A stretch of DNA of 22,418 bases, from contig CAMHLN010000016.1 of NCBI GenBank assembly GCA_946186155.1, forward strand, positions 1-22,418. The letters run 5' to 3'. This document shows positions 3,532 through 20,457 of the stretch, piece after piece (position 1 is the stretch's first letter; each line of letters begins with the position of its first letter). The notes beneath the pieces are model-generated. The model did no database searches. It was not told the DNA's origin and saw only the letters and a list, made by a program, of their open reading frames with translations. Position numbers and translations under genes: made by a program. Source of the stretch: an uncultured Clostridia bacterium. GTDB lineage: Bacteria > Bacillota > Clostridia > Oscillospirales > Acutalibacteraceae.

Positions 3532-3618
3532 GCTGGTATGGCGGAATAGGTAGACGCAAGGGACTTAAAATCCCTCGGTAGCGATGCCGTATCGGTTCAA
3601 GTCCGATTACCAGCACCA
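3532..3618 (+). tRNA. tRNA-Leu (anticodon TAA), CCA encoded
   Basis: Acceptor GCTGGTA pairs with TACCAGC. The anticodon stem-loop is GGGACTTAAAATCCC. A long variable arm (type II) is present. Discriminator A followed by CCA. Confidence 0.85.
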
Positions 3619-3619
3619 A

Positions 3620-3695
3620 AGGGGTATAGCTCAGTTGGTAGAGCAACGGTCTCCAAAACCGTGTGCCGAGGGTTCGAGTCCTTCTACCCCTGCCA
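3620..3695 (+). tRNA. tRNA-Trp (anticodon CCA), CCA encoded
   Basis: Acceptor AGGGGTA pairs with TACCCCT. The D-arm is AGCTCAGTTGGTAGAGC. The anticodon loop CTCCAAA sits in the ACGGT/ACCGT stem. The T-arm is GGTTCGAGTCC. Confidence 0.85.
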
Positions 3696-3767: not shown

Positions 3768-4328
3768 ATGATTGTACATTCGGGAACGTGTCAAATTCAA
3801 ACTCAGAGGCTTGTTTTAAGGAAGTTTGTTCAGAGTGATGCTGAGCCAATGTTTAATAATTGGGCGGGAGATTGTGAAAATGTTAAGTACGTTAGTTGGA
3901 AAGCTCACAAAAGTTTAAGCGAAACCCAAAAGTTAGTTTCTGATTGGATTCAAGGTTATGACAATTTGGACTATTATCGTTGGGTTATAACTCTTAAGGA
4001 TAGTGGTCACGTTATAGGAGAAATATCCGTTATTGATTTTTCCGATTGTGACGAATGCTGTGAAATTGGATATATTCTTTCGAAAAAATACTGGAATATG
4101 GGATTTATGACTGAAGCATTAAATGCTGTTATTAGATATCTTTTCGAAAAAGTAGGATTTCATCGTGTGCAATTACGCCACGATGTGAACAATCCAGCTT
4201 CTGGAAGAGTTATGCAGAAAAATGGATTAAAATATGAAGGGACGTTGCGCCATTCAAGAAAAAATAATCAAGGCAATTATTGCGATACATCTATTTATTC
4301 GATTTTGAAGTTCGAATTTAAATTTTGA
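3768..4328 (+). CDS. GNAT-family N-acetyltransferase (RimJ/RimL-like)
   Basis: The N-terminal TQRLVLRKFVQSDAEPMF matches the GNAT beta1-alpha1 region. The pattern HRVQLRHDVNNPASGRVMQKNG(L)KYEG is typical of ribosomal-protein acetyltransferase-like GNATs. Confidence 0.8.
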   Translation: MIVHSGTCQIQTQRLVLRKFVQSDAEPMFNNWAGDCENVKYVSWKAHKSLSETQKLVSDWIQGYDNLDYYRWVITLKDSGHVIGEISVIDFSDCDECCEIGYILSKKYWNMGFMTEALNAVIRYLFEKVGFHRVQLRHDVNNPASGRVMQKNGLKYEGTLRHSRKNNQGNYCDTSIYSILKFEFKF

Positions 4329-4508: not shown

Positions 4509-4585
4509 CGAGGTGTAGCTCAGTTTGGGAGAGCGCTTGGTTTGGGACCAAGAGGCCGCAGGTTCGATCCCTGTCACTTCGACCA
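4509..4585 (+). tRNA. tRNA-Pro (anticodon TGG), CCA encoded
   Basis: Acceptor CGAGGTG pairs with CACTTCG. The D-arm is AGCTCAGTTTGGGAGAGC. The anticodon loop TTTGGGA sits in a CTTGG/CCAAG stem. The T-arm is GGTTCGATCC. Confidence 0.85.
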
Positions 4586-4611
4586 CTCTGGAGTTTTTAT
4601 TGGAGTTAATT

Positions 4612-5541
4612 ATGATTGGATTATTTGTAGTGCTTTTCTTAATTATTGTCATCATTGCAGTCGCTGTTACTTTATTTTCTGGATATTACATTGTTCGTCA
4701 GCAAACAGTTTGCATAATAGAAAGACTCGGTAAGTTTCATAAAATTGCTGATCCGGGATTGCATTTTAGAATTCCTTGGGGAATTGATAGAATTGCAAAA
4801 TGTGTGAGCCTTAAAGTTCATCAAAATAATATCGAAATTGAAACGAAGACGAAAGATAATGTGTTTGTTGTTCTCGATTTGGCAGTTCAATTCAAAGTTG
4901 ATCCAAATAAAGTAACTGATGCTTATTATAAACTTTTGACTCCTACAGCTCAAATTGAATCTTATATTGAAGATGCAATAAGATCTACCTTTTGTAAATT
5001 CCCTCTTGATGAATCGTATGAAAAAAAGGATGACATAGCTCAAGATGTATTTGATACTGTCTCGAGTGAAATGTCAGAATATGGGTATGTGATTATAAAA
5101 ACTCTTATAACATCTATTGAGCCTGACAAACAAGTTAAAGAGGCGATGAATGCCATTAACGCTTCTCAAAGGCAGAAATGTGCAGCTCAAGAACTTGCGA
5201 ATGCTGATAAAATAAAAATAGTCACAGCTGCTGAAGCAGATGCAGAAAAAGATCGCCTACACGGTGAAGGAATAGCGAATCAACGTAAAGCTATCGTGGA
5301 TGGATTAAGTGAGTCATTTAATGAGTTGAAATCAAGTGGACTTAGTGAACAAGAAGTCATGAGTATACTTTTGACAGAGCAATATCTTGATGCTTTACAG
5401 ACTTTTGCAAAATATGGTAACCATGCAATATTTCTTCCTGCAGGAGCATCCGGGGCAGATGATATTAGAACTCAAATTTTGAGTGCTATGCATGCTGTGA
5501 AAAATCATGATGATAACAAAGAAATTGAAAATAGAGTCTAG
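4612..5541 (+). CDS. SPFH/band-7 (stomatin/prohibitin-like) membrane protein
   Basis: N-terminal TM helix MIGLFVVLFLIIVIIAVAVTLF, then an SPFH core (IIERLGKFHKIADPGLHFRIPWGIDRI...) and a C-terminal coiled-coil. GGAG RBS at 4602-4605. The ORF-track extension back to 4525 overlaps tRNA-Pro and was rejected. Confidence 0.85.
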   Translation: MIGLFVVLFLIIVIIAVAVTLFSGYYIVRQQTVCIIERLGKFHKIADPGLHFRIPWGIDRIAKCVSLKVHQNNIEIETKTKDNVFVVLDLAVQFKVDPNKVTDAYYKLLTPTAQIESYIEDAIRSTFCKFPLDESYEKKDDIAQDVFDTVSSEMSEYGYVIIKTLITSIEPDKQVKEAMNAINASQRQKCAAQELANADKIKIVTAAEADAEKDRLHGEGIANQRKAIVDGLSESFNELKSSGLSEQEVMSILLTEQYLDALQTFAKYGNHAIFLPAGASGADDIRTQILSAMHAVKNHDDNKEIENRV

Positions 5542-8424: not shown

Positions 8425-8501
8425 GCGCCGGTAGCTCAGCAGGATAGAGCAACTGCCTTCTAAGCAGTAGGTCAGGGGTTCGAATCCCTTTCGGCGTGCC
8501 A
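8425..8501 (+). tRNA. tRNA-Arg (anticodon TCT), CCA encoded
   Basis: Acceptor GCGCCGG pairs with TCGGCGT. D-arm TAGCTCAGCAGGATAGAGC. Anticodon loop CTTCTAA in an ACTGC/GCAGT stem. T-arm GGTTCGAATCC. Confidence 0.8.
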
Positions 8502-8503
8502 GT

Positions 8504-8580
8504 GGTGGGCATAGCTCAGTTGGGAGAGCGCCAGATTGTGACTCTGGAGGTCGCCGGTTCAATCCCGGTTGTCTACCCCA
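8504..8580 (+). tRNA. tRNA-His (anticodon GTG) with encoded G-1, CCA encoded
   Basis: G-1 at 8504 pairs with discriminator C. Acceptor GTGGGCA pairs with TGTCTAC (2 G-U pairs). Anticodon loop TTGTGAC. T-arm GGTTCAATCC. Confidence 0.8.
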
Positions 8581-8582
8581 GT

Positions 8583-8657
8583 TGGGTTGTCGCCAAGTGG
8601 TAAGGCAATGGGCTCTGACCCCATCATTCGCTGGTCCGAATCCAGCCAACCCAGCCA
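8583..8657 (+). tRNA. tRNA-Gln (anticodon CTG), CCA encoded
   Basis: Acceptor TGGGTTG pairs with CAACCCA. Anticodon stem ATGGG/CCCAT with loop CTCTGAC. T-arm GGTCCGAATCC. Resembles the E. coli tRNA-Gln scaffold. Confidence 0.8.
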
Positions 8658-8662
8658 TTCAA

Positions 8663-8737
8663 TGGGATGTAGCCAAGCGGTAAGGCAACGGACTTTGACT
8701 CCGTCATTCGTTGGTTCGAATCCAGCCATCCCAGCCA
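8663..8737 (+). tRNA. tRNA-Gln (anticodon TTG), CCA encoded
   Basis: Acceptor TGGGATG pairs with CATCCCA. Anticodon stem ACGGA/TCCGT with loop CTTTGAC. T-arm GGTTCGAATCC. Confidence 0.8.
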
Positions 8738-9004: not shown

Positions 9005-9445
9005 ATGGGATTTTTTGAAGATTGTTATCTTAATATGAAGAGTGGAATTTCTAGGGCGGCAGAAAAAACTAAGAAAGTTTTAAATATTTCTAAAATAAAG
9101 ATCGAAATGGCTGAAAGAAAAAATTGTATCAATGATAAATATAAGCTGATAGGTAAGTACGTCTATGATATGCACAAAGGGGGGGAGAAGTTTGAGATTG
9201 AAGATATTGCTGATTGGCTTGAAGAGATAGATGCTCTTAGTTCGAGTATAGAAGAATGCGAAGAACGTTTGCATCGCGCTCAGGATAAGGTTTGCTGCCA
9301 TTATTGTAAATATAAGAACGAGTCTGGATCGAAATTTTGCAGCAACTGTGGTAAGAAGATATCTTTTGCCAAAAGAGGAAGCAAATCGTCTTGTGAAAAC
9401 TGTGAGAACGAAGAAAACAATGAAGAAAATGTTGAAATTAGCTAA
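9005..9445 (+). CDS. Hypothetical protein with coiled-coil N-terminus and C-terminal Cys-rich zinc-ribbon (CCHYC...CSNC, CENC)
   Basis: GGAG RBS 7 nt upstream. Cys pairs CHYC-x11-CSNC plus SSCENCENE read like a zinc ribbon. No family recognised. Confidence 0.55.
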   Translation: MGFFEDCYLNMKSGISRAAEKTKKVLNISKIKIEMAERKNCINDKYKLIGKYVYDMHKGGEKFEIEDIADWLEEIDALSSSIEECEERLHRAQDKVCCHYCKYKNESGSKFCSNCGKKISFAKRGSKSSCENCENEENNEENVEIS

Positions 9446-9514
9446 TTTTTAGCAAAAATCTTGACTTGATTTTAATTGTATCGTAATTGCAACGTAGTTG
9501 TTTTTTATCGAAGT

Positions 9515-9982
9515 TTATTTTTCTTGCAATAAGCATATCGCAATAGCTTTTACTCCTTTGATTTCTCCTGTGAATCCTAATTTTTCTTCAGTTTTGAATT
9601 TCACATTAATCTGATTGGGGCTTATTTTGCAACAGTCAGATAATTTTTTTTCTATGCTATATCTATAAGGATTAAGAACAGGAGTCTGGGCCACAAATGT
9701 GCAATCTATATTGATAATTTTAAAATCTGAAATGATTTCAATTGTTTTTTCCAAAAGATTCAAACTACTTAAATCTTTGTATTTATCATCTTCTGGAGGG
9801 AAATGTTGTCCTATGTCTCCTTTACATGTTGCTCCTAAGATTGAATCTATAACAGCATGAGTCAAAGCATCTCCATCACTGTGAGAAATGCATCCGTAAT
9901 TACTTTCAATTTCAACTCCGCCAACTATAAATTTTGCTCCTTTTTTTAATTCATGAACATCATAACCTATTCCTATTTTCAT
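9515..9982 (-). CDS. ispF: 2-C-methyl-D-erythritol 2,4-cyclodiphosphate synthase
   Basis: MKIGIGYDVHEL...GCISHSDGDALTHAVIDSILGA...GDIGQHFP and a C-terminal KTEEKLGFTGEIKGV match the IspF signature regions. The gene is monocistronic and not fused to ispD. Confidence 0.9.
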   Translation of the reverse strand: MKIGIGYDVHELKKGAKFIVGGVEIESNYGCISHSDGDALTHAVIDSILGATCKGDIGQHFPPEDDKYKDLSSLNLLEKTIEIISDFKIINIDCTFVAQTPVLNPYRYSIEKKLSDCCKISPNQINVKFKTEEKLGFTGEIKGVKAIAICLLQEK

Positions 9983-10127
9983 GATATCCCTCTATAAAAT
10001 AGCATATTGAATTATTTTAGTTTTGTTTATATCATAATCACGTGTTATTTTCTATGATATTTTTCATATGAAATTTTTTTATAAGATTTAGTATGACAAA
10101 TTTTGACAATTATTGGGAGTAAAGTTT

Positions 10128-10682
10128 ATGATAAAGTTTCTAAATGGAAACTGCGATTTGTTAATTAGGCACGATAAAAATTCGATTTTATTCAATGAAG
10201 ATTTATTCATTTACTCAGTATCGAAAATAGCTGAGGATATAAAAAAGAATTTTGATATGAGTAAAAAGATAGGTCTTGTTGGAATTGCTCGAGGAGCATT
10301 GCCTTTATTAGTTGCCGTTTCGCATGAATTAGGAATACGAAACGTCAATGTGTTTCAGTTAGTTATGAGTAAGTCTGATAACGAGTTCGATTTTGATGAA
10401 GTAGCGAAGATTTATGATGGGTATGTTGATAAAAGTTGCGATTGCTATATAATATTCGAAGATATAGTTAGTGAGGGACGAAGTGTTAATGTGCTGTTGG
10501 AAGAATTTTTGAAAAAGAAATTGGAGGTTTCTGCTGTTTATTCTTTGTTTGTGAAAGAAGATTTTATCGAATCCGGGAAATTGCTAGGAGATACAGATTT
10601 GAGATATGTCTTTCCTTTCAAAACGGATGAGTGGGTGTATTTTTTCTGGGAAAAGAAGTATAAAATTTTGAAAAATTTATGA
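10128..10682 (+). CDS. Type I phosphoribosyltransferase, Gpt (xanthine-guanine PRTase)-like, with atypical PRPP loop
   Basis: The ORF-track start at 10113 is a TTG. The ATG at 10128 has GGGAG 8 nt upstream. LVGIARGALPLLVAVSHELGIRNVNV parallels Gpt [26 protein letters not shown]. The PRPP motif is YIIFEDIVSEGRS, against canonical VIDDLVDTGGT. The C-terminus DEWVYFFWE parallels Gpt DTWIEQPWD. Confidence 0.7.
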   Translation: MIKFLNGNCDLLIRHDKNSILFNEDLFIYSVSKIAEDIKKNFDMSKKIGLVGIARGALPLLVAVSHELGIRNVNVFQLVMSKSDNEFDFDEVAKIYDGYVDKSCDCYIIFEDIVSEGRSVNVLLEEFLKKKLEVSAVYSLFVKEDFIESGKLLGDTDLRYVFPFKTDEWVYFFWEKKYKILKNL

Positions 10683-10693
10683 AAGGATAAGTA

Positions 10694-11020
10694 ATGTACA
10701 GAGTAATAAAAAGACTGGAAATTTCAGCGTCACATAAATTGAATCTTCCGTATGAAAGTAAGTGTAAAAATCTTCATGGGCACAATTGGATATTGACTGT
10801 TTATTTACAATCTGAAACTTTAGAAAATGGCATGGTTTATGACTTTACTGAAATTAAGAAGTTGGTTAAAAATAGATTAGACCATAAAAATATGAACGAT
10901 TACATAGAACAACCAACGGCTGAGAATATTGCAAAGTACGTTTGTGACATTTTAGGAGAAAAGTGTTATATGGTAGAAGTGCAAGAAAGCGATGGGAACG
11001 TCGCAGTATATGAAAAGTAA
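10694..11020 (+). CDS. queD: 6-carboxy-5,6,7,8-tetrahydropterin synthase
   Basis: At 108 aa it has the PTPS/QueD size. It carries the catalytic CxxxxHGH motif (CKNLHGHNW) and lies 11 nt downstream of the PRTase gene. Confidence 0.85.
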   Translation: MYRVIKRLEISASHKLNLPYESKCKNLHGHNWILTVYLQSETLENGMVYDFTEIKKLVKNRLDHKNMNDYIEQPTAENIAKYVCDILGEKCYMVEVQESDGNVAVYEK

Positions 11021-12467: not shown

Positions 12468-12486
12468 GTAAATTTTGGAGGTATTT

Positions 12487-13350
12487 ATGAACGAAACTAA
12501 AAAAAGATTGTTATCATGTTTATTACTTGCTATGGGGGGATTAAATTTAGGCACTGGAGTGTCTAATGCTCGATCAAAAGATGTTACCAATATGTCTAAT
12601 GTATCTTCCGAAGAAACTAAGAGAAATTCTAAAATTTCAAGTATTTTTAATTTAAGAAATGGTATAGATATTTTGGGATTATTGACTATAATTTATGGAG
12701 GTAAAAAGCTCCGGAATAATTCGCGAGACATAATTAAGAAAAATTCGGATATTATTAAGTATTACAAAGGACAAACTGATGATTTTAATTTATTGCAAGA
12801 TTTCCAACAGTTGTTTCGTTTTTGTTTGTGCCAGTCAAACGCTGGTTTTATTCATTTGAAAGATTTTACCGAAGAAGACTGCAAAAAGTACGACATCGTT
12901 TGTTTTAATAACGCGCAATACGACAAATCTGATGAATATTTGAGTTATTATTTTATTGTTGAATCGTCAGTAGATAAGAATGAAAAATTTAATTTTGCTT
13001 TTTGTACAAATAACAATTTTATGTCAGTTATAGCTCCTGCTAGTGCTGGTAATATTTCTGAGGATTATTCTGAAGAATATAATAATTTGAAACCATTTAA
13101 AGTAGCTGGGTATAGTATTTCGAAGGAAGTAAAACGAGAAAAATGTGCTAAAATTGTCGGGTTTAAATCATTGTTTCTAGGTATTAAACATCCAAATTTG
13201 TATTTTGGGGGCAAAGAACTGTTGGAAGAACACAAAAAAAAATTTGAAGATTATTATATAGTTTTTGAGATATATAGAGAGGTAGGTGAGGAGTACTACT
13301 CCTTGGATGGAATATACTGTAAAGTTTCATTGGTTAGACCAAAAAATTAA
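12487..13350 (+). CDS. Secreted protein, variable family member 1 (signal peptide, conserved RNG-IDILGLLTIIYGG N-module, Cys-containing divergent C-terminus)
   Basis: ATG 12487 follows GGAGGT. MNETKKRLLSCLLLAMGGLNLGTGVSNA|RS is a Sec signal peptide. The ORF-track 12475 start is a TTG extension. Confidence 0.8.
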   Translation: MNETKKRLLSCLLLAMGGLNLGTGVSNARSKDVTNMSNVSSEETKRNSKISSIFNLRNGIDILGLLTIIYGGKKLRNNSRDIIKKNSDIIKYYKGQTDDFNLLQDFQQLFRFCLCQSNAGFIHLKDFTEEDCKKYDIVCFNNAQYDKSDEYLSYYFIVESSVDKNEKFNFAFCTNNNFMSVIAPASAGNISEDYSEEYNNLKPFKVAGYSISKEVKREKCAKIVGFKSLFLGIKHPNLYFGGKELLEEHKKKFEDYYIVFEIYREVGEEYYSLDGIYCKVSLVRPKN

Positions 13351-13461: not shown

Positions 13462-13518
13462 ATGAACAAAGCTAAAAAAAGATTGTTATCATGTTTATTA
13501 CTTGCTATGGGGGGTTAA
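13462..13518 (+). other. Orphaned start and signal-peptide fragment of paralog 2 (MNKAKKRLLSCLLLAMGG*), terminated by a 1-nt indel
   Basis: Its RBS and start context are identical to paralog 1. After the G6 run, paralog 1 reads GGGGGGATTAAAT and paralog 2 reads GGGGGGTTAAAT. The reading frame therefore hits TAA at 13516-13518. Confidence 0.75.
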
Positions 13519-14342
13519 ATTTAGGCACTGGAGTGTCTAATGCTTCCCCTAGGAGTAGTACTGAAAAATCCGAGAAAAATTCGAAAGTTTCAAGTATTTT
13601 TAATTTAAGAAATGGTATAGATATTTTGGGATTATTGACTATAATTTATGGAGGTAAAAAGCTTCGGGATAAAAATAAATCGTTGGAAGAATTGAATGAG
13701 GACAGATCGTATATCAAGGAGTTTTACGAAAATAAAGTTGATGATATTAACCTCTTTCAAAATTTTCAACATTTGTTTTATCTTTGTTTTAAAGGTGTAA
13801 TGTATTTTAGTGAATATAATTGGCAAGATTTAACAACAGAAGACTGCAAAAATTACGGAACCGTTTGTTTTGATAACAGTAAGTTAGAAGACGACAATTG
13901 TTATCGGAGTTGTTATTTTATTTCAAATAAACGTTTGGACAAGGAAAGTGATAGATTTTCATACATTGAAAAGCCAGAGTTATCGTCAGTTCTAGCTTCG
14001 GCTCCTAGTCAGTACGCCGGTGAATGTGGTAATTTAGAACCATTTACAATGGCTGGATATTCTGTTTGGTACAGTTTACAGAAAAACTTACGTGTTAAAA
14101 TCATCAAGTTTGAAGAACTTTTAAAAAAAGTTGAATATGATAACTTAAATAATTTGTGGAGTAAAGAAAAGTTTGATGAATATAAAGAGAAATTTAAAGA
14201 TTACTATATACTTTGTGAGGTGTATACAAATAGATATAAAAACCCCGAAATTAAAGATGAAGTTTTCTACAAATTTTCATTGGTTAAACCAATAGCACCA
14301 GCACCAATGCCAATACCAGAACCAGTACCGAAAAAAAATTAA
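13491..14342 (+). CDS. Secreted-protein family member 2, frameshifted at N-terminus (possible pseudogene or phase-variable)
   Basis: From the internal ATG at 13491 the protein reads MFITCYGGLNLGTGVSNA...SSIFNLRNGIDILGLLTIIYGGKKLR, 100% identical to paralog 1 across this module and then divergent. It has lost the charged n-region and start of the signal peptide. The C-terminus reads PIAPAPMPIPEPVPKKN. Confidence 0.6.
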   Translation: MFITCYGGLNLGTGVSNASPRSSTEKSEKNSKVSSIFNLRNGIDILGLLTIIYGGKKLRDKNKSLEELNEDRSYIKEFYENKVDDINLFQNFQHLFYLCFKGVMYFSEYNWQDLTTEDCKNYGTVCFDNSKLEDDNCYRSCYFISNKRLDKESDRFSYIEKPELSSVLASAPSQYAGECGNLEPFTMAGYSVWYSLQKNLRVKIIKFEELLKKVEYDNLNNLWSKEKFDEYKEKFKDYYILCEVYTNRYKNPEIKDEVFYKFSLVKPIAPAPMPIPEPVPKKN

Positions 14343-14359
14343 GAACAATCTTTAACAAA

Positions 14360-15376
14360 TCAGTTTGATATATGAACCAAATGAGCTACTCCAGGAATGT
14401 TTTTTCCTTGCTGAAAAGAGGTTGGAGACATTAAGGCTCCCGTGGCCATGAACAAAACGCTGTTTAGTTTGTGTTTTGCCATTTTTTGTAAAACATATGA
14501 GCACAAAATTGAAGCAGAGCATCCGCATCCCGAGCCTCCAGCATGGACATCTTGTTCTTCCTTATGAAAAATCATCAGCCCGCAGTCGTTGTAGTTTTTT
14601 GTGATATCTATTCCTTCTTTCGCTAGAAGTTCCTGAAGAAGTAGTGCTCCTGTTTCTCCTAAATCTCCTGAAAGAATTAAATCGTAATTTTCAGGAGATG
14701 TTTTAGTATCTTCAAAAAATTTTTTAAGAGTTACAAATGCTGCAGGAGCCATAGCTGCTCCCATGTTTGACGAATCAGTTACTCCCAAGTCCTCTATTGT
14801 TCCAGCGGTGAAATGTTTAATGAACGGAGTATTTTGTTTTTCTGTTTTTTGCCCCAAAACTATAGCTCCTGAGCCTGTGACCGTCCACTGAGCATTGGGA
14901 GTTCTTTGGCCTCCATAATCCAAAGGAAATCTATATTGTCTTTCTGCTGCGCAAAAATGAGATGAAGTAACAGATATGCAATTTTTTGCCGCATTAGATT
15001 CCACGAAAATCGATGCTACTATCAAAGTTTGTGCCATTGTAGAACAAGCTCCGAATTGGCCTAAAAATGGAATTTTCAGTTTTTTTAATCCCATCATCGA
15101 GGATATACATTGGTCTAGCAAGTCTCCTGCAAAAACGAAATCTATTTCATTTGAATTCACCCTAGATTTTTCAATTGCTATCCGAACTGCTTCTTTTTGC
15201 AAAATGGCTTCAGATTCTTCCCAAGTTTTTTGCCCAAATCTATTGTCTTTGAATGTTTTATCGAATAAGTTTCCTAGAGGACCTTGAGACTCTTTTAATC
15301 CACAAACTGATGCGAATCCCTTAATTGTTGGGCAATTTTCTAATTTAATAGTGCTTTTTCCTATTCTTATGGCCAT
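14360..15376 (-). CDS. spoVAD: Stage V sporulation protein AD
   Basis: At 338 aa it is the same length as B. subtilis SpoVAD. It shows long collinear identity: EGPLGxLFDK, GDLLxQ, IPFLxxFGACST, TSSHxxxAERQxRxPxxYGGQ, TVTGSGAxVL, GxTDSxxMGxAMAPAA, YDLILxGDL, NDCGLMI, AGGSGCxCSA and ATGALxSPT. Confidence 0.92.
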   Translation of the reverse strand: MAIRIGKSTIKLENCPTIKGFASVCGLKESQGPLGNLFDKTFKDNRFGQKTWEESEAILQKEAVRIAIEKSRVNSNEIDFVFAGDLLDQCISSMMGLKKLKIPFLGQFGACSTMAQTLIVASIFVESNAAKNCISVTSSHFCAAERQYRFPLDYGGQRTPNAQWTVTGSGAIVLGQKTEKQNTPFIKHFTAGTIEDLGVTDSSNMGAAMAPAAFVTLKKFFEDTKTSPENYDLILSGDLGETGALLLQELLAKEGIDITKNYNDCGLMIFHKEEQDVHAGGSGCGCSASILCSYVLQKMAKHKLNSVLFMATGALMSPTSFQQGKNIPGVAHLVHISN

Positions 15377-15517
15377 AAAATCTCCTGTATTTTTTAGGAT
15401 ATCAACTTTATTTTGTCCCGATTTTTTGAAATAATCACTCGGTTGACATCTAGAATGAGTGTTTATATTAAGATAACGAGATTTTTCTTTTTTATTTTTT
15501 GAAATAATGTCTGAACC

Positions 15518-15546
15518 TTCTAATTTTTTTAAAAGAATGGTATAAT
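15518..15546 (+). promoter_or_regulatory. Putative promoter of transporter gene (TGgTATAAT extended -10)
   Basis: TATAAT at 15541-15546 with a TG at 15538-15539, and a weak -35 TTCTAA 17 bp upstream. Confidence 0.4.
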
Positions 15547-15593
15547 GGCTTCGCTTTTATAATCGGACTAATGTTTAGAGGTGTTTAGAAAGG

Positions 15594-16871
15594 ATGTTTA
15601 TGCCAAATTTTTTGAAAAATGAAACTAACAGAATTTTTTTTGCTCTTTTTCTAGGAGTAATTTTTGGAGCAATAATGAAACTTTTGCCTCCATCTTCGTA
15701 TCTGGACGACATATTAGTTAACGGAATACTTAGACTTGTTGGAAACGGATTTATTGAACTTATCAAAATGACTGTAGTTCCTCTTATTTTCACATCAATT
15801 ATATGCGGAGTTTCCTCATTTGGGGATTCAAAAAAATTAGGAAAAATCGGAGCAAAAACCCTGATATTATTTTTTATTACTACCCTCATTGGAGTAATAA
15901 TTTCTTTATTTTTAGCTATGCTTTTCAAACCAGGATACGTTGAAAATCCTTTAGTTTCTGCGGAAATTGGTTCTAGTTCTAGTCAAAATTCGAAAAATTT
16001 TTTCGATGTAATTATCGAAATGATTCCTAATAATCCTTTTAAATCAATGTCTGAAGGAAATTTACTACAGGTATTGATATTTGCTTCATTTTTTGGAGTT
16101 GCCATAGGAAAGATGGGAGAAAAATCAAAAAAAATAGTAGATATGTTCAATCTAATCAACGAATGTATTATGAAAATTGTATCTATGATTATCAAAATTA
16201 CTCCATTTGGAGTTTTCGCATTGGTTTCTATCGCAATGTACTCAACGGGATTAGAATCTTTGATTGGAGTTTTAAAATTGAGCATGGTAGTAATTTCTGC
16301 ACTTTTGGTTCAAGCATTTTTAGTTTACGGTTTGTTCTACAAAATAGGAACTGGGTTTTCTTTTTTTAAATTTTTAAAAAATTATTCAAAAATAGCAAGC
16401 ATAGCGTTCTCAACGTCATCAAGTAATGCGTGTTTACCATATGGAATGAAAATGATGGAAAAAATTGGAGTAGATAAATCTATATATCAGTTTATTTTAA
16501 CTTTAGGATCCACTATAAACATGGCAGGAACAGCTATAATGCAATCTGCAAGCGTTATTTTTATTTCTCAACTCCACGGTATAGAATTATCTCTTAGTTC
16601 TATTACCAGAATAGTATTTACATCTGTTTTGGCTTCTGCTGGAGCTGCGGGAGTCCCGGGAGTTGGAATTATAATGCTTACTATGGTAGTGTCGTCAGTT
16701 GGATTACCTACTGAGGGGATAGCAATGATTATGGGATTCGATAGAATTTTAGATATGCTTAGAACTCCTGTGAATGTCATGGGAGACTGCGTTTGTTCTA
16801 TCATAGTAGCAAAGAGTGAAAATTCCGTAGATATGACCAAATTCAACTCGGAAAGTAGAAATACCAAATAA
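15594..16871 (+). CDS. Dicarboxylate/amino acid:cation symporter (DAACS/GltP-SstT family)
   Basis: Polytopic membrane protein with IKMTVVPLIF and AFSTSSSNACLP hairpin-loop motifs, which are diagnostic of sodium:dicarboxylate symporter family proteins. The start may be ATG 15600, which has AGGA 5 nt upstream. Confidence 0.85.
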   Translation: MFMPNFLKNETNRIFFALFLGVIFGAIMKLLPPSSYLDDILVNGILRLVGNGFIELIKMTVVPLIFTSIICGVSSFGDSKKLGKIGAKTLILFFITTLIGVIISLFLAMLFKPGYVENPLVSAEIGSSSSQNSKNFFDVIIEMIPNNPFKSMSEGNLLQVLIFASFFGVAIGKMGEKSKKIVDMFNLINECIMKIVSMIIKITPFGVFALVSIAMYSTGLESLIGVLKLSMVVISALLVQAFLVYGLFYKIGTGFSFFKFLKNYSKIASIAFSTSSSNACLPYGMKMMEKIGVDKSIYQFILTLGSTINMAGTAIMQSASVIFISQLHGIELSLSSITRIVFTSVLASAGAAGVPGVGIIMLTMVVSSVGLPTEGIAMIMGFDRILDMLRTPVNVMGDCVCSIIVAKSENSVDMTKFNSESRNTK

Positions 16872-18280: not shown

Positions 18281-19246
18281 TTGAATAAGTCAAGATTATT
18301 ATCGTGCATAATGTTGTGTAGTACGGCGCTAGGGTTGGGTTTAGGAATAGGAACATCCGCCAAAACATCAAACGCCAAGACGTTAGATGACAAGGTGTCC
18401 CAAAGAAAGTATTCTAGAAATGGTTCAATGTTAAGTTTTCGTACGTTATTGGAATTTATTACCGTTTCTGGATTGTGCCTTAAAATAAAATCAATTTCTG
18501 ATGAAAACTCTGCAAAGGATCTTCGGGTTGGAGAGTTAGAGGAATTGAATAAGAGTTTAGATGAAAAAGTTAAACAATTAGATAGCAAAGTGTTTGGTGA
18601 TACATCCGATATTAATAAGCTTTCAATTACGAATGGCTTTTTAAAAAAAGACAACATTGAATTAAAGAATAAAATTGTTGTTTTAGAAAATAAGTTGGAA
18701 GCTAGTACGGTAGATAATAATATTATTAAAGATTTTGTTTCACGTTTTTTTTCGTTGGAATTAAAAGCAAAAGGTCAATGGGATTCAAGATGGCAGGAAT
18801 TGGAGAAAGATCAAGAATTTGTTTGCAAAAAATTTGGTGAACACTTTTGTTTCGGTGTCATTACAAGTGACTTAGATAGTTATGATTTTGAATCACAATC
18901 ATTGATTGAAAATTTAGGGAAAAATTTTAGCCTTAAATCGAAAGACGGATGGCAAACAAATTTTGATCGTGCATTAGAAATTTTGTGTCAAAAAAATTCT
19001 CAAATGTTTTTAGATGATAAGAGTAATGTGGTTCCAGATAGGAAGGCTTGTTGTTTTGGTGATAAGATTCGACGATTATGTCGAACATTGTATAAAACTT
19101 TTGAAAGTTCATCTGGTGAGAAATTTACAGTTTCTTGTAGTCTGTATGCTAAAACAGATAATTGGAATCGTTTGTGCTCAGTTGTTGTGATTTATGCTAT
19201 TGGTGACGTGGTTGATAAGAATCAGCCGGCTCCTGTTTTGGTTTAA
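18281..19246 (+). CDS. Secreted protein, variable family member 3 (TTG start; signal peptide MNKSRLLSC...TSNA; RNG module; coiled-coil; Cys-rich C-terminus)
   Basis: TTG 18281 has GGGGTGA 6 nt upstream. The N-terminal KxRLLSC...GLG.G.S..SNA and SRNGSMLSFRTLLEFITVSG parallel paralogs 1 and 2 (LRNGIDILGLLTIIYGG). Confidence 0.7.
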   Translation: MNKSRLLSCIMLCSTALGLGLGIGTSAKTSNAKTLDDKVSQRKYSRNGSMLSFRTLLEFITVSGLCLKIKSISDENSAKDLRVGELEELNKSLDEKVKQLDSKVFGDTSDINKLSITNGFLKKDNIELKNKIVVLENKLEASTVDNNIIKDFVSRFFSLELKAKGQWDSRWQELEKDQEFVCKKFGEHFCFGVITSDLDSYDFESQSLIENLGKNFSLKSKDGWQTNFDRALEILCQKNSQMFLDDKSNVVPDRKACCFGDKIRRLCRTLYKTFESSSGEKFTVSCSLYAKTDNWNRLCSVVVIYAIGDVVDKNQPAPVLV

Positions 19247-19680: not shown

Positions 19681-20457
19681 ATGAGTTTCAAATCTGTTAA
19701 AAAAATTGTTAGCAAATTCGTGTTGGCTATGTTACTTTCATCATCATTTTCACTGAATGGCGATGCCATAGGCAAAGTACAGGAAATGGTAATGAAAGAT
19801 TGGCTTGAACATCAGGGGCTGAATGTCGAAGAAGGAATGAAAAAACTGCAGTACGCTGCTAAAGATGGTACCCCTTGCTATTTGGTTCCTATATATGAAA
19901 ATGACGAGGTTGAAAAGTTTATCGTTGATTTGTATAGTAATCAGGCTTATAAAGATTATATGTATAATTGGTTTGGTGGCAAGGGAATGAGTACCCAACA
20001 AAAAGCTAGATCCTCTAAGTTTGATGTGCCATATCTTAACATGCACAATTCCAAAGATCCCAGAGTGAATGCTCATGAGTATTTTGATGGTTATTTATCT
20101 AGGTCTGTAAACTTCGTAATTTTCTATGGAGATTTTTTAGCAGGACAGCTTTCGATGGGCCCGATGAGAAATTTGGGAGTTCCAAGTGAAGTTGCTGTCG
20201 TGATTCACAAAAAATACAGTGGAAAGGGAATATTCTCTGGGCTTTCTCAAATAGATATGGGATTTTTCATGAACGCTTATAAAAATGGTACTAAGAATGC
20301 AAGCCGAAATTTAAGCAGAATATACACCACACCTTCTAAGCCTCAAGCAACTAGTTTCATGGGTAGAGTGTTATCTGAAAAGTTTGGATTTTATTATGAC
20401 GAAAAATTGACTTCACAGAAAAAAGATGGTTGCAGTTACTACTATAAAGTTATTTAA
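19681..20457 (+). CDS. Hypothetical secreted protein (signal peptide; no recognised family)
   Basis: The N-terminus MSFKSVKKIVSKFVLAMLLSSSFSLNG reads as a signal peptide. GAGAGGT RBS. Its stop overlaps the stop of the convergent gene. Confidence 0.6.
   Translation: MSFKSVKKIVSKFVLAMLLSSSFSLNGDAIGKVQEMVMKDWLEHQGLNVEEGMKKLQYAAKDGTPCYLVPIYENDEVEKFIVDLYSNQAYKDYMYNWFGGKGMSTQQKARSSKFDVPYLNMHNSKDPRVNAHEYFDGYLSRSVNFVIFYGDFLAGQLSMGPMRNLGVPSEVAVVIHKKYSGKGIFSGLSQIDMGFFMNAYKNGTKNASRNLSRIYTTPSKPQATSFMGRVLSEKFGFYYDEKLTSQKKDGCSYYYKVI

What the first reader, a model, noticed from the sequence alone, without database searches (positions are those of the whole stretch)
14360..15376. Orphan spoVAD, uncoupled from spoVAC/spoVAEb, embedded between the variable secreted-protein genes and a transporter
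The SpoVAD assignment is very strong, being collinear with B. subtilis SpoVAD at the same 338-aa length. In Bacilli and Clostridia spoVAD is the middle gene of a spoVAC-spoVAD-spoVAEb unit needed for dipicolinate uptake into the forespore. Here it stands alone in a 219-bp divergent intergenic region with its own leader. I could not find a convincing sigma-G or sigma-F promoter by eye. That the organism is a spore-former is itself informative for the whole locus.
Basis: partly seen in the sequence, partly recalled or inferred. Interest (0 to 1): 0.55.

Follow-up and report, generated by a model that had tools for sequence, protein, structure and literature searches.

The report
Stand-alone spoVAD spore gene, lineage-typical
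This is a genuine, well-conserved copy of the spore gene spoVAD sitting on its own, and that layout proves to be normal for a large group of gut and rumen Clostridia (including proven spore-formers such as Ruminococcus bromii) that keep the partner genes elsewhere in the genome, so the finding is real but ordinary.

Summary
The ORF at 14360-15376 (-) is a bona fide, full-length SpoVAD. It scores Pfam PF07451 E=1e-139, exceeds the TIGR02845 and NF006160 cut-offs, and is about 44% identical to B. subtilis SpoVAD (3LM6). No spoVAC or spoVAEb lies in the 22.4-kb window.

The solitary layout is not peculiar to this window. Every sampled SpoVAD locus 63-100% identical to it (11 non-redundant genomic contexts) is also solitary. 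Only 10 of 41 non-redundant related loci have the textbook C-D-Eb arrangement.

Three members of the sister clade have the partners elsewhere:
- Ruminococcus bromii L2-63: C, D and Eb at three loci.
- Ca. Vesiculincola pelomyxae, with endospores seen by EM: C = RUMPE_00233, Eb = RUMPE_00494, D = RUMPE_00536.
- An uncultured species: C and D 34 kb apart on one contig.

The window's gene is under strong purifying selection (dN/dS 0.03-0.06) and keeps the channel-plug loop. It also has a conserved sigma-F/G-like -10 box upstream.

The best reading (about 0.75) is a dispersed but intact SpoVA dipicolinate channel system. SpoVAC and SpoVAEb could not be located for the window's own sub-clade, so a D-only relic (about 0.15) is not excluded. 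Interest is low.

The parts
14360..15376 (-). spoVAD coding sequence (338 aa). It encodes the thiolase-fold cytoplasmic subunit, or 'plug', of the SpoVA dipicolinate channel.
   Evidence: Pfam PF07451 E=1e-139 over the full length. TIGR02845 and NF006160 are both above their cut-offs. PDB 3LM6/3LMA E about 1e-89. dN/dS is 0.03-0.06 against relatives. The plug loop FRFPL(D)YGGQRTP is conserved.
15382..15386 (-). Shine-Dalgarno sequence AGGAG, with 5 nt between it and the ATG.
   Evidence: Read directly from the sequence. AGGAG/GGAG is conserved at the same place in L003, L004, L005 and L012.
15403..15427 (-). Conserved upstream block AAAAAATCGGGACAAAATAAAGTTG. It contains a -10-like box, GGACAAAATA (15409-15418), of the forespore sigma-F/sigma-G type. 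This is a putative promoter of a monocistronic transcript, inferred and not demonstrated.
   Evidence: The core of this block (AAAAA, GG, CAAA, TA) holds the only run of invariant columns upstream of the ribosome-binding site in the alignment of five relatives, whose other upstream sequence and flanking genes differ. A best shared 16-mer test gave 0 of 300 shuffles as good. The box is the single match to GGNCAAAMTA in the window. The generic consensus GGNNANAHTR occurs at chance frequency (19 found, 19.1 expected), so the support comes from conservation and not from the consensus match.
15377..15593 (.). 217-bp divergent intergenic region between spoVAD and the SDF-family transporter gene.
   Evidence: ORF coordinates. 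The scan found no sigma-70-type promoter-like site in this interval on either strand; the two sites it reported lie inside the CDS.
13491..14342 (+). Convergent downstream neighbour. It is an uncharacterised predicted secreted protein and a tandem paralogue of 12475-13350. It is not part of the spoVA system and marks the 3' boundary of the spoVAD unit.
   Evidence: No Pfam or NCBIfam hit. It is 41% identical to the adjacent gene. Its orientation rules out a spoVAEb gene immediately downstream of spoVAD.
15594..16871 (+). Divergent upstream neighbour, a sodium:dicarboxylate symporter family (GltP/DctA-like) transporter. It is not part of the spoVA system and marks the 5' boundary.
   Evidence: PF00375 E=1e-118. 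NCBIfam GltP/DctA hits fall below the equivalog cut-offs. It neighbours spoVAD only in the window's own species (L012, L013) and not in L003, L004, L007 or L016.

Best explanation
The gene is the D subunit of a dispersed but intact SpoVA system. In the established model from B. subtilis and C. difficile, SpoVAC and SpoVAEb form a channel in the inner forespore membrane, and SpoVAD docks on its cytoplasmic face. A flexible loop of SpoVAD (E152/Y153 in B. subtilis) plugs the pore. Cycles of plugging and unplugging drive dipicolinate import during sporulation, and removal of D lets dipicolinate out at germination.

In the lineage that includes this organism, the ancestral C-D-Eb operon has been broken up. 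spoVAD is transcribed alone from its own promoter, probably a forespore sigma-F/sigma-G type. spoVAC and spoVAEb are expected at separate loci with their own promoters.

Shown here:
- The identity of the gene and its integrity.
- Strong purifying selection.
- Conservation of the plug loop.
- A solitary layout across the whole clade.
- Unlinked C (and Eb) in three sister-clade organisms, two of which make endospores.

Inferred:
- That this organism's own genome carries spoVAC and spoVAEb.
- That the conserved upstream box is a forespore promoter.
- That the organism sporulates.
For: 1. The SpoVAD assignment is unambiguous.

2. The solitary layout is clade-wide. There is no PF03862 gene and no jackhmmer C/Eb hit within 10 kb on either side, or as far as the contig runs (2.9-4.9 kb on one side in L004, L016 and L018). 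This holds for the window, L012/13, L003, L004, L007, L016, L018, L019, L010/11, L014, L015 and L017, which have D 63-100% identical and mostly unrelated flanks (groES-groEL lies near D in L007, L014 and L017).

3. Among 41 non-redundant D loci with at least 2 kb of flank on each side, the counts are D alone 14, C-D 12, C-D-Eb 10 and D-Eb 5.

4. R. bromii L2-63 forms heat-resistant endospores. Its spoVAE lies at 620,709, spoVAD at 833,612 and spoVAC at 857,225 (PMC5814915 Data File S2).

5. L015 is Ca. Vesiculincola pelomyxae, whose endospores were seen by EM and whose sporulation genes are highly expressed (PMC10579272).
   - spoVAD is RUMPE_00536 and spoVAE is RUMPE_00494.
   - Its 'hypothetical' RUMPE_00233 is a SpoVAC equivalog (TIGR02838 171 against 164) on another scaffold.
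   - dpaA/B and sigF are present, and spoIVA and sipL lie within 10 kb upstream of spoVAD in L015.

6. In an uncultured sister-clade species, SpoVAC (P0341) and SpoVAD (P0040) lie on the same contig, ERZ17962245 NODE_17. C is at 80.2 kb (-) and D at 115.2 kb (+), 34.4 kb apart, and each is solitary.

7. Solitary spoVAC genes are common in this group: L098, L112, L104-111 and L122.

8. dN/dS is 0.03-0.06 for the window against relatives.

9. The plug loop is almost invariant in 14 sequences of the window's sub-clade (Y153 in 100%, D/E at 152). The residues that co-evolve with SpoVAC are held fixed (residue roles from PMC9186386).

10. A conserved -10-like box of forespore type lies upstream. 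In L004 and L005 a GC-rich hairpin precedes it, consistent with a separate transcript.
Against: spoVAC and spoVAEb were not found for the window's own sub-clade (clade A: window, L003, L004, L007, L016). The genome behind the window could not be searched, because the window is the whole contig and its MAG is not a species representative in genome contigs. Both SpoVAC protein searches list only the best 120 hits and stopped at 65% identity, which is probably above what clade A's SpoVAC would score.

The solitary spoVAC contigs that were recovered resemble sister-clade genomes and not the window in tetranucleotide composition.

No other sporulation gene was recognised in about 100 kb of clade A DNA. 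By contrast, spoIVA, sipL and yabQ turned up in a similar amount of sister-clade DNA.

The promoter assignment rests on a short degenerate consensus that occurs at chance frequency in the window. No convincing -35 element at canonical spacing was seen.
Confidence: 0.75

Rival explanations
1. D-only relic or repurposed protein. Under this reading, the window's low-GC rumen sub-clade has lost sporulation together with spoVAC and spoVAEb. It keeps the thiolase-fold SpoVAD for some other role, such as binding a small ligand.
For: No SpoVAC or SpoVAEb, and no other sporulation gene, was seen in about 100 kb of DNA from this sub-clade. The sub-clade carries its own substitutions in the plug region (F147Y, E152D, T160N). 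Many Clostridia that do not sporulate keep scattered sporulation genes (Galperin et al.).
Against: Purifying selection is as strong as in sporulating relatives. The plug loop and the SpoVAC-contact positions would lose their constraint without a channel partner, yet they are invariant or nearly so across 14 sub-clade sequences that are only 69-86% identical overall. A conserved upstream box of forespore type is present, and no sigma-70-like promoter was found. All three sister-clade organisms that could be checked have the partners.
Confidence: 0.15
2. Recently transferred or mobile spoVAD cassette. Under this reading the gene was inserted by horizontal transfer next to variable surface-protein genes, and so has no operon partners.
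For: The genomic context differs completely between relatives at 71-82% protein identity. Neighbours include variable secreted-protein genes and, in L003, phage-tail-like genes. In L021 a C-D pair sits beside a large serine recombinase.
Against: No integrase, transposase or repeat flanks the gene in the window. Overall GC is close among clade A contigs (window 0.34, L007 0.34), and their tetranucleotide profiles correlate at r=0.98 between window and L007. In a neighbour-joining tree the SpoVAD sequences of the window's sub-clade group together and apart from the others. Synteny is stable within the species across four independent assemblies.
Confidence: 0.05
3. Assembly or binning artefact. 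Under this reading a mis-join or contig break separated spoVAD from its operon partners.
For: The window is a short contig from a metagenome-assembled genome.
Against: Both neighbours are complete genes in orientations that leave no room for partners. The identical arrangement is seen in independent assemblies from other samples, on contigs of 69 kb and 146 kb (L012, L013) and in two short contigs.
Confidence: 0.02

Closest known systems
Canonical spoVA operons: B. subtilis spoVAA-AB-AC-AD-AEb-AEa-AF and C. difficile spoVAC-AD-AE
   Same: The protein is the same family and about the same length. It is 44% identical to B. subtilis SpoVAD. It keeps the thiolase-fold core (Cys110 position conserved), the plug loop (E/D-Y-G-G-Q) and the positions that co-evolve with SpoVAC (PMC9186386).
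   Different: The gene is not in an operon. Neither spoVAC nor spoVAEb lies within the 7 kb upstream or the 14 kb downstream of spoVAD that the contig provides. It has its own upstream region with a conserved -10-like box. E152 is replaced by D, and T160 by N.
Dispersed spoVA genes of Ruminococcus bromii L2-63 (Oscillospiraceae under NCBI, Acutalibacteraceae under GTDB), a demonstrated endospore former
   Same: spoVAD stands alone, while spoVAC (24 kb away) and spoVAE (212 kb away) are at other loci (PMC5814915 Data File S2). This is the arrangement proposed for the window's organism.
   Different: R. bromii and its relatives belong to the sister clade, whose SpoVAD proteins are 61-69% identical to those of the window's sub-clade. 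The partners are documented there but not for the window's sub-clade.
Ca. Vesiculincola pelomyxae (amoeba endosymbiont, 1.4 Mb, 33% GC, endospores seen by EM)
   Same: It has a small, low-GC genome with a solitary spoVAD (L015, 63% identical). spoVAE lies 42 genes away and spoVAC is on another scaffold.
   Different: spoIVA and sipL lie 9 kb from its spoVAD, and sporulation genes are transcribed. No such corroboration exists for the window's organism.
spoVA2mob operon on Tn1546-like transposons in Bacillus
   Same: It shows that spoVA genes can relocate in genomes (PMC5133452, seen).
   Different: That element carries a whole multi-gene spoVA operon on a transposon. Here a single gene sits with no mobile-element features.

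Membership tests
SpoVAD protein family (PF07451 / TIGR02845) | Full-length match to the family profile above the curated cut-offs | tested here: met
   PF07451 scores 465 bits against a cut-off of 22 and covers profile positions 1-328 of 329. NF006160 scores 464.9 against 402, and TIGR02845 scores 415.9 against 411.8.
SpoVAD protein family (PF07451 / TIGR02845) | Colinear homology to the crystallised SpoVAD thiolase-like fold | tested here: met
   3LMA and 3LM6 match at E about 1e-89 over residues 5-334 with only short internal gaps. No structure was predicted, because the sequence evidence is decisive.
SpoVAD protein family (PF07451 / TIGR02845) | Flexible plug loop (B. subtilis E152-Y153) and SpoVAC-coupled surface positions (T160, D200, I242, D245) | tested here: met
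   The window has D-Y at the plug. Y153 is invariant, and position 152 is D or E throughout. Positions 160, 200, 242 and 245 are N, N, L and E and are fixed within the sub-clade. Residue roles come from PMC9186386.
SpoVAD protein family (PF07451 / TIGR02845) | Binds dipicolinate and is needed for its uptake into the forespore | not testable with these tools
   This needs biochemistry or genetics.
Canonical spoVAC-spoVAD-spoVAEb operon | spoVAC immediately upstream and spoVAEb immediately downstream on the same strand | tested here: not met
   The neighbours are a divergent SDF transporter and a convergent secreted-protein gene. No C or Eb homologue exists in the window.
Dispersed SpoVA system of the Ruminococcus bromii / Acutalibacteraceae type | spoVAD is monocistronic, with the solitary state conserved across relatives | tested here: met
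   Eleven non-redundant contexts at 63-100% identity are all solitary. A conserved upstream box is present, and a terminator-like hairpin precedes it in L004 and L005.
Dispersed SpoVA system of the Ruminococcus bromii / Acutalibacteraceae type | spoVAC and spoVAEb present elsewhere in the same genome | not testable with these tools
   The window is the whole contig, and its MAG is not in genome contigs. The partners were shown for three sister-clade organisms but not for the window's sub-clade.
Dispersed SpoVA system of the Ruminococcus bromii / Acutalibacteraceae type | Forespore-specific (sigma-G or sigma-F) transcription | tested here: inconclusive
   The conserved box GGACAAAATA fits the -10 consensuses GGNNANAHTR and cAtnnTA, which are quoted from my own knowledge of the B. 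subtilis literature. The consensus is at chance frequency in the window, and no clear -35 element was seen.
Endospore-forming organism | Core sporulation genes (spo0A, sigF/E/G/K, spoIVA, spoIIIA, dpaAB) in the genome | not testable with these tools
   None was seen in the window or in about 100 kb of sub-clade loci. This is a small fraction of a genome.

The most novel reading that the evidence does not exclude
The window's low-GC rumen sub-clade ('Clostridia bacterium' MAGs such as RGIG9287 and RGIG3258) may have lost SpoVAC, SpoVAEb and sporulation altogether. It would then keep a SpoVAD with sub-clade-specific plug-loop changes (E152D, T160N) under strong purifying selection for a function that does not involve the channel.
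Probability: 0.12. Interest if true: 0.55.

Novelty: new member of a known kind. Interest (0 to 1): 0.2.

Why it matters
The practical lesson concerns annotation. Absence of spoVAC and spoVAEb next to spoVAD is not evidence of an incomplete or repurposed system in Oscillospiraceae-like Clostridia. In this part of the SpoVAD family the textbook tri-gene unit is the minority arrangement.

For predicting sporulation from MAGs, this means the three genes must be scored genome-wide and not as an operon. It also means unnamed SpoVAC genes can be missed. Ca. Vesiculincola RUMPE_00233, annotated as 'hypothetical', is one such case.

The gene is also a modest indicator that this uncultured rumen lineage may form spores. 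That bears on its transmission and cultivation, but the indication needs whole-genome confirmation.

Tried and rejected
1. Looking for SpoVAC or SpoVAEb in the window and in all fetched loci, by tblastn and by iterated jackhmmer. None was found in the window or in any locus at least 63% identical.

2. Exact look-up of the window's SpoVAD. This returned only short contigs and gave no wider context. The 97%-identical P0121 extended the view by only about 3.5 kb.

3. The genome-contig scan.

4. Matching 'longest contig' lengths between the SpoVAD and SpoVAC hit lists. This linked three sister-clade organisms (lengths 341348, 143073 and 12541), one of them confirmed by coordinates. It linked none from the window's sub-clade.

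5. Picking AT-biased SpoVAC hits as candidates for the window's sub-clade (P0225, P0279, P0339). Tetranucleotide profiles and GC place them with sister-clade genomes instead, so the proposed mapping was rejected.

6. Looking up GTDB taxonomy for RGIG9287 and RGIG3258 in the supplements of PMC8199421. The identifiers are not in the held text.

7. Cluster-member look-up for names. None were given.

8. Generic sigma-F -10 consensus scan. It is uninformative on its own, with 19 matches found against 19.1 expected. A CATTCTA heptamer at 15451-15457 (-) fits the sigma-G -10 consensus. It is conserved only within the species and has no -35 partner, so it was not adopted.

9. Viral-contig scan with the SpoVAD alignment. 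It gave two distant hits and nothing from the sub-clade.

10. Pfam and NCBIfam scans of unannotated ORFs in sub-clade loci for other sporulation genes. None was found.

Full report
**Observation.** The minus-strand ORF at 14360-15376 (338 aa, ATG start, AGGAG at 15382-15386) is real. It matches Pfam SpoVAD over the whole profile (E=1e-139). It passes the NCBIfam cut-offs for NF006160 and for the equivalog TIGR02845. It aligns colinearly with the two crystallised SpoVAD proteins (E about 1e-89) and is 44% identical to B. subtilis SpoVAD.

The downstream neighbour (13491-14342, +) is convergent, 17 bp away. The upstream neighbour (15594-16871, +) is a divergent SDF/GltP-type transporter, and the intergenic region is 217 bp. 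No SpoVAC or SpoVAEb homologue exists in any frame of the window. tblastn found none, and neither did an iterated profile that readily finds both paralogues in other loci.

The window is a complete 22,418-bp contig of an NCBI MAG with 34% GC. The same gene order occurs in four independent assemblies, two of them on contigs of 69 kb and 146 kb. An assembly artefact is therefore excluded.

**How unusual is a solitary spoVAD?** The nearest genomes are rumen MAGs labelled 'Clostridia bacterium': RGIG9287, RGIG3258 and an uncultured Clostridia MAG, at 81-82% identity. I examined the surroundings of SpoVAD homologues at decreasing identity:
- L003 and L004, 81-82%
- L007, 71%
- L016, 71%
- L010/11, 66%
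- L014, 65%
- L017, 64%
- L015, 63%
- L018 and L019, 66-67%

All are solitary, with no PF03862 gene within the flanks read: 10 kb on each side, or to the contig end in L004, L016 and L018. Their flanking genes are mostly unrelated; groES-groEL lies close to spoVAD in three sister-clade or clade A loci (L007, L014, L017).

A metagenome scan with a SpoVAD alignment gave 80 further loci at 48-67% identity. After de-replication at 95%, and requiring at least 2 kb of flank on both sides, 41 loci remained:

| Arrangement | Loci |
|---|---|
| D alone | 14 |
| C-D without Eb | 12 |
| C-D-Eb | 10 |
| D-Eb without C | 5 |

The sample is biased towards relatives of the window's protein. Even so, it shows that in this part of the family the textbook unit is the minority.

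A neighbour-joining tree and identity matrices define two groups:
- Clade A contains the window, L003-5, L007 and L016 (69-86% identical internally).
- Clade B, its sister, contains L010, L014, L015 and L017-19 (73-82% internally, 61-69% to clade A).

**Do organisms with a solitary spoVAD have the partners?** Three clade B organisms could be checked.

1. L015 is Ca. Vesiculincola pelomyxae (GCA_030920305.1), assigned to 'Acutalibacteraceae'. It has a 1.4-Mb, 33% GC genome.
   - Terminal endospores were seen by EM, and sporulation genes are highly expressed (PMC10579272).
   - Its expression table lists spoVAD as RUMPE_00536 (flanked by plsC and pglC exactly as in L015), spoVAE as RUMPE_00494, plus dpaA/B, sigF and spoIVA.
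   - No spoVAC is named there. My SpoVAC search recovered 'hypothetical protein RUMPE_00233' from that organism on a different, 501-kb scaffold. It is a TIGR02838 equivalog (171 against 164).
2. Ruminococcus bromii L2-63 forms heat-resistant endospores (PMC5814915). Its gene list places spoVAE at 620,709-621,062, spoVAD at 833,612-834,622 and spoVAC at 857,225-857,680.
3. SpoVAC P0341 and SpoVAD P0040 share the contig-length fingerprint 341,348. Coordinates confirm that both lie on ERZ17962245 NODE_17_length_203300. C is at 80,239-80,769 (-) between queH and arcA, and D is at 115,218-116,234 (+). They are 34.4 kb apart, and each is alone.

Solitary spoVAC genes recur in other conserved contexts: aspC-trpS-spoVAC in L098 and L112, and glycosyltransferase-spoVAC-hpf in L122.

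**The window's gene itself.** dN/dS against relatives is 0.03-0.06, in the comparisons where dS is not saturated. In the Gao et al. model (PMC9186386), SpoVAD docks on the SpoVAC-SpoVAEb channel. Residues E152/Y153 of a flexible loop plug it, and T160, D200, I242 and D245 co-evolve with the SpoVAC N-terminus.

The window has D-Y at the plug. The loop FRFPL(D/E)YGGQRTPxAQWTVTGSG is essentially invariant in 14 clade A sequences that are only 69-86% identical overall. The coupled positions are fixed as N, N, L and E. Constraint on a channel-contact surface argues that a channel partner exists. This is an inference.

**Transcription.** The pattern scan found no sigma-70-type promoter-like site in the intergenic region. 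An alignment of the upstream regions of the window, L012, L003, L004 and L005 shows one conserved island, AAAAAT[TC][GT]GG[AG]CAAA[AC]TA, in otherwise unrelated sequence. In L003 it is retained about 45 nt further from the start codon. No shuffle out of 300 gave as good a shared 16-mer; L004 and L005 are not independent of each other, so this is somewhat optimistic.

In the window the box GGACAAAATA is at 15409-15418 (-), the only match to GGNCAAAMTA. It fits the B. subtilis sigma-F -10 consensus GGNNANAHTR and resembles the sigma-G -10 cAtnnTA. I quote both consensuses from my own knowledge. The generic consensus is at chance frequency in the window, and I saw no -35 element at canonical spacing, so this is a lead and not a demonstration.

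In L004 and L005 a GC-rich hairpin immediately precedes the box, consistent with a separate transcript. By eye, similar GAATA/GTATA-N14-15-GG..A.A.T arrangements precede solitary spoVAD in L007 and solitary spoVAC in L098, L112 and L122. This was not tested statistically.

**What remains open.** I could not find spoVAC or spoVAEb for clade A itself.
- The genome could not be searched.
- Both SpoVAC searches list only the top 120 hits and ended at 65% identity.
- Among linked clade B pairs, SpoVAC is 2-8 points less conserved than SpoVAD. Clade A's SpoVAC is therefore expected at or below 65%, and was probably not listed.
- AT-biased SpoVAC candidates that I looked up resemble clade B genomes in tetranucleotide profile, not the window.
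- No other sporulation gene was recognised in about 100 kb of clade A DNA.

A D-only relic in a lineage that no longer sporulates therefore cannot be excluded. I put it at about 0.15, against about 0.75 for a dispersed intact system.

**Comparison and verdict.** The protein is a member of the SpoVAD family; every sequence-level criterion is met. The locus is not a member of the canonical operon class, because adjacency was tested and is not met. It matches the dispersed arrangement already present, though not commented on, in the published gene lists of R. bromii and Ca. Vesiculincola.

The suggestion that the layout is anomalous is not supported. It is a new member of a known kind, of low interest, with an annotation lesson attached.

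Noticed in passing
window 12475-13350, 13491-14342 (+); also 18281-19246 and 19681-20457: There are two tandem paralogous genes (41% identical) with a near-identical N-terminal segment (GGLNLGTGVSNA...SSIFNLRNGIDILGLLTIIYGGKKLR) and no Pfam or NCBIfam match. The closely related strains L012 and L013 carry a single 286-aa gene at this position, so copy number varies within the species. Two further family-less predicted secreted proteins lie downstream of radA.
   Followed up: partly
L004 8784-9836 (+); L007 9267-9890 (+); L009 173-802 (+): A protein with weak RING-type zinc-finger matches (zf-C3HC4, zf-RING_2) lies immediately upstream of solitary spoVAD, on the same strand, in two different clade A contexts. 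RING fingers are uncommon in bacteria.
   Followed up: no
P0272 (Ca. Vesiculincola pelomyxae RUMPE_00233, on a 501-kb scaffold): The deposited annotation calls this protein 'hypothetical', but it is a SpoVAC equivalog (TIGR02838 171 bits against a cut-off of 164). The published gene table therefore lacks a named spoVAC, although the organism has one.
   Followed up: yes
L021 7572-9212 (+), next to spoVAC-spoVAD at 9326-11008: A 546-aa gene whose sequence I read as a large serine recombinase (not checked against a family library) lies directly upstream of a C-D pair. In a neighbour-joining tree this pair falls inside the otherwise solitary-D clade B. One possibility is that the pair was re-acquired or moved on a mobile element.
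   Followed up: no
L003 12178-16864 (+): An AAA ATPase (644 aa) and a phage tail-sheath protein lie 1-5 kb downstream of spoVAD in RGIG9287. This may be a prophage or a contractile-injection-system cluster.
   Followed up: no
L015 13647-15185 (-): A TLC-family ATP/ADP translocase gene lies 2.6 kb from spoVAD in Ca. Vesiculincola. The published description reports a nucleotide transporter, but a spore-forming energy parasite is a curious combination.
   Followed up: no
window 4525-5541 (+) and tRNA-Pro 4509-4585: The mechanical ORF for the SPFH/Band-7 protein starts inside tRNA-Pro. The homologous gene is called at 309 aa in L012, so the true start is about 29 codons further in. There are seven tRNA genes in the window: Leu and Trp at 3532-3695, Pro at 4509-4585, and Arg, His, Gln and Gln at 8425-8737.
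   Followed up: partly
L098 about 4195-4235; L112 about 4200-4235; L007 about 9935-9970; L122 about 9945-9985: Solitary spoVAC and solitary spoVAD genes in different genomes are preceded by similar GAATA/GTATA-N14-15-GG[ATG][AG]A.A.T motifs. An example is GAATAATAT...GG[AT]AAAATA in both L007 (D) and L098/L112 (C). This hints that each dispersed gene kept a forespore-type promoter. The pattern was seen by eye only.
   Followed up: partly
L031 and L033 (36% GC; contigs of 140 kb and 1.09 Mb): This is another variant arrangement. spoVAC is separated from spoVAD by about 1 kb (room for one gene), and spoVAEb lies 8-9 kb upstream on the opposite strand. L006 (Lachnospiraceae) likewise has C-D adjacent with Eb 6 kb away on the other strand.
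   Followed up: no
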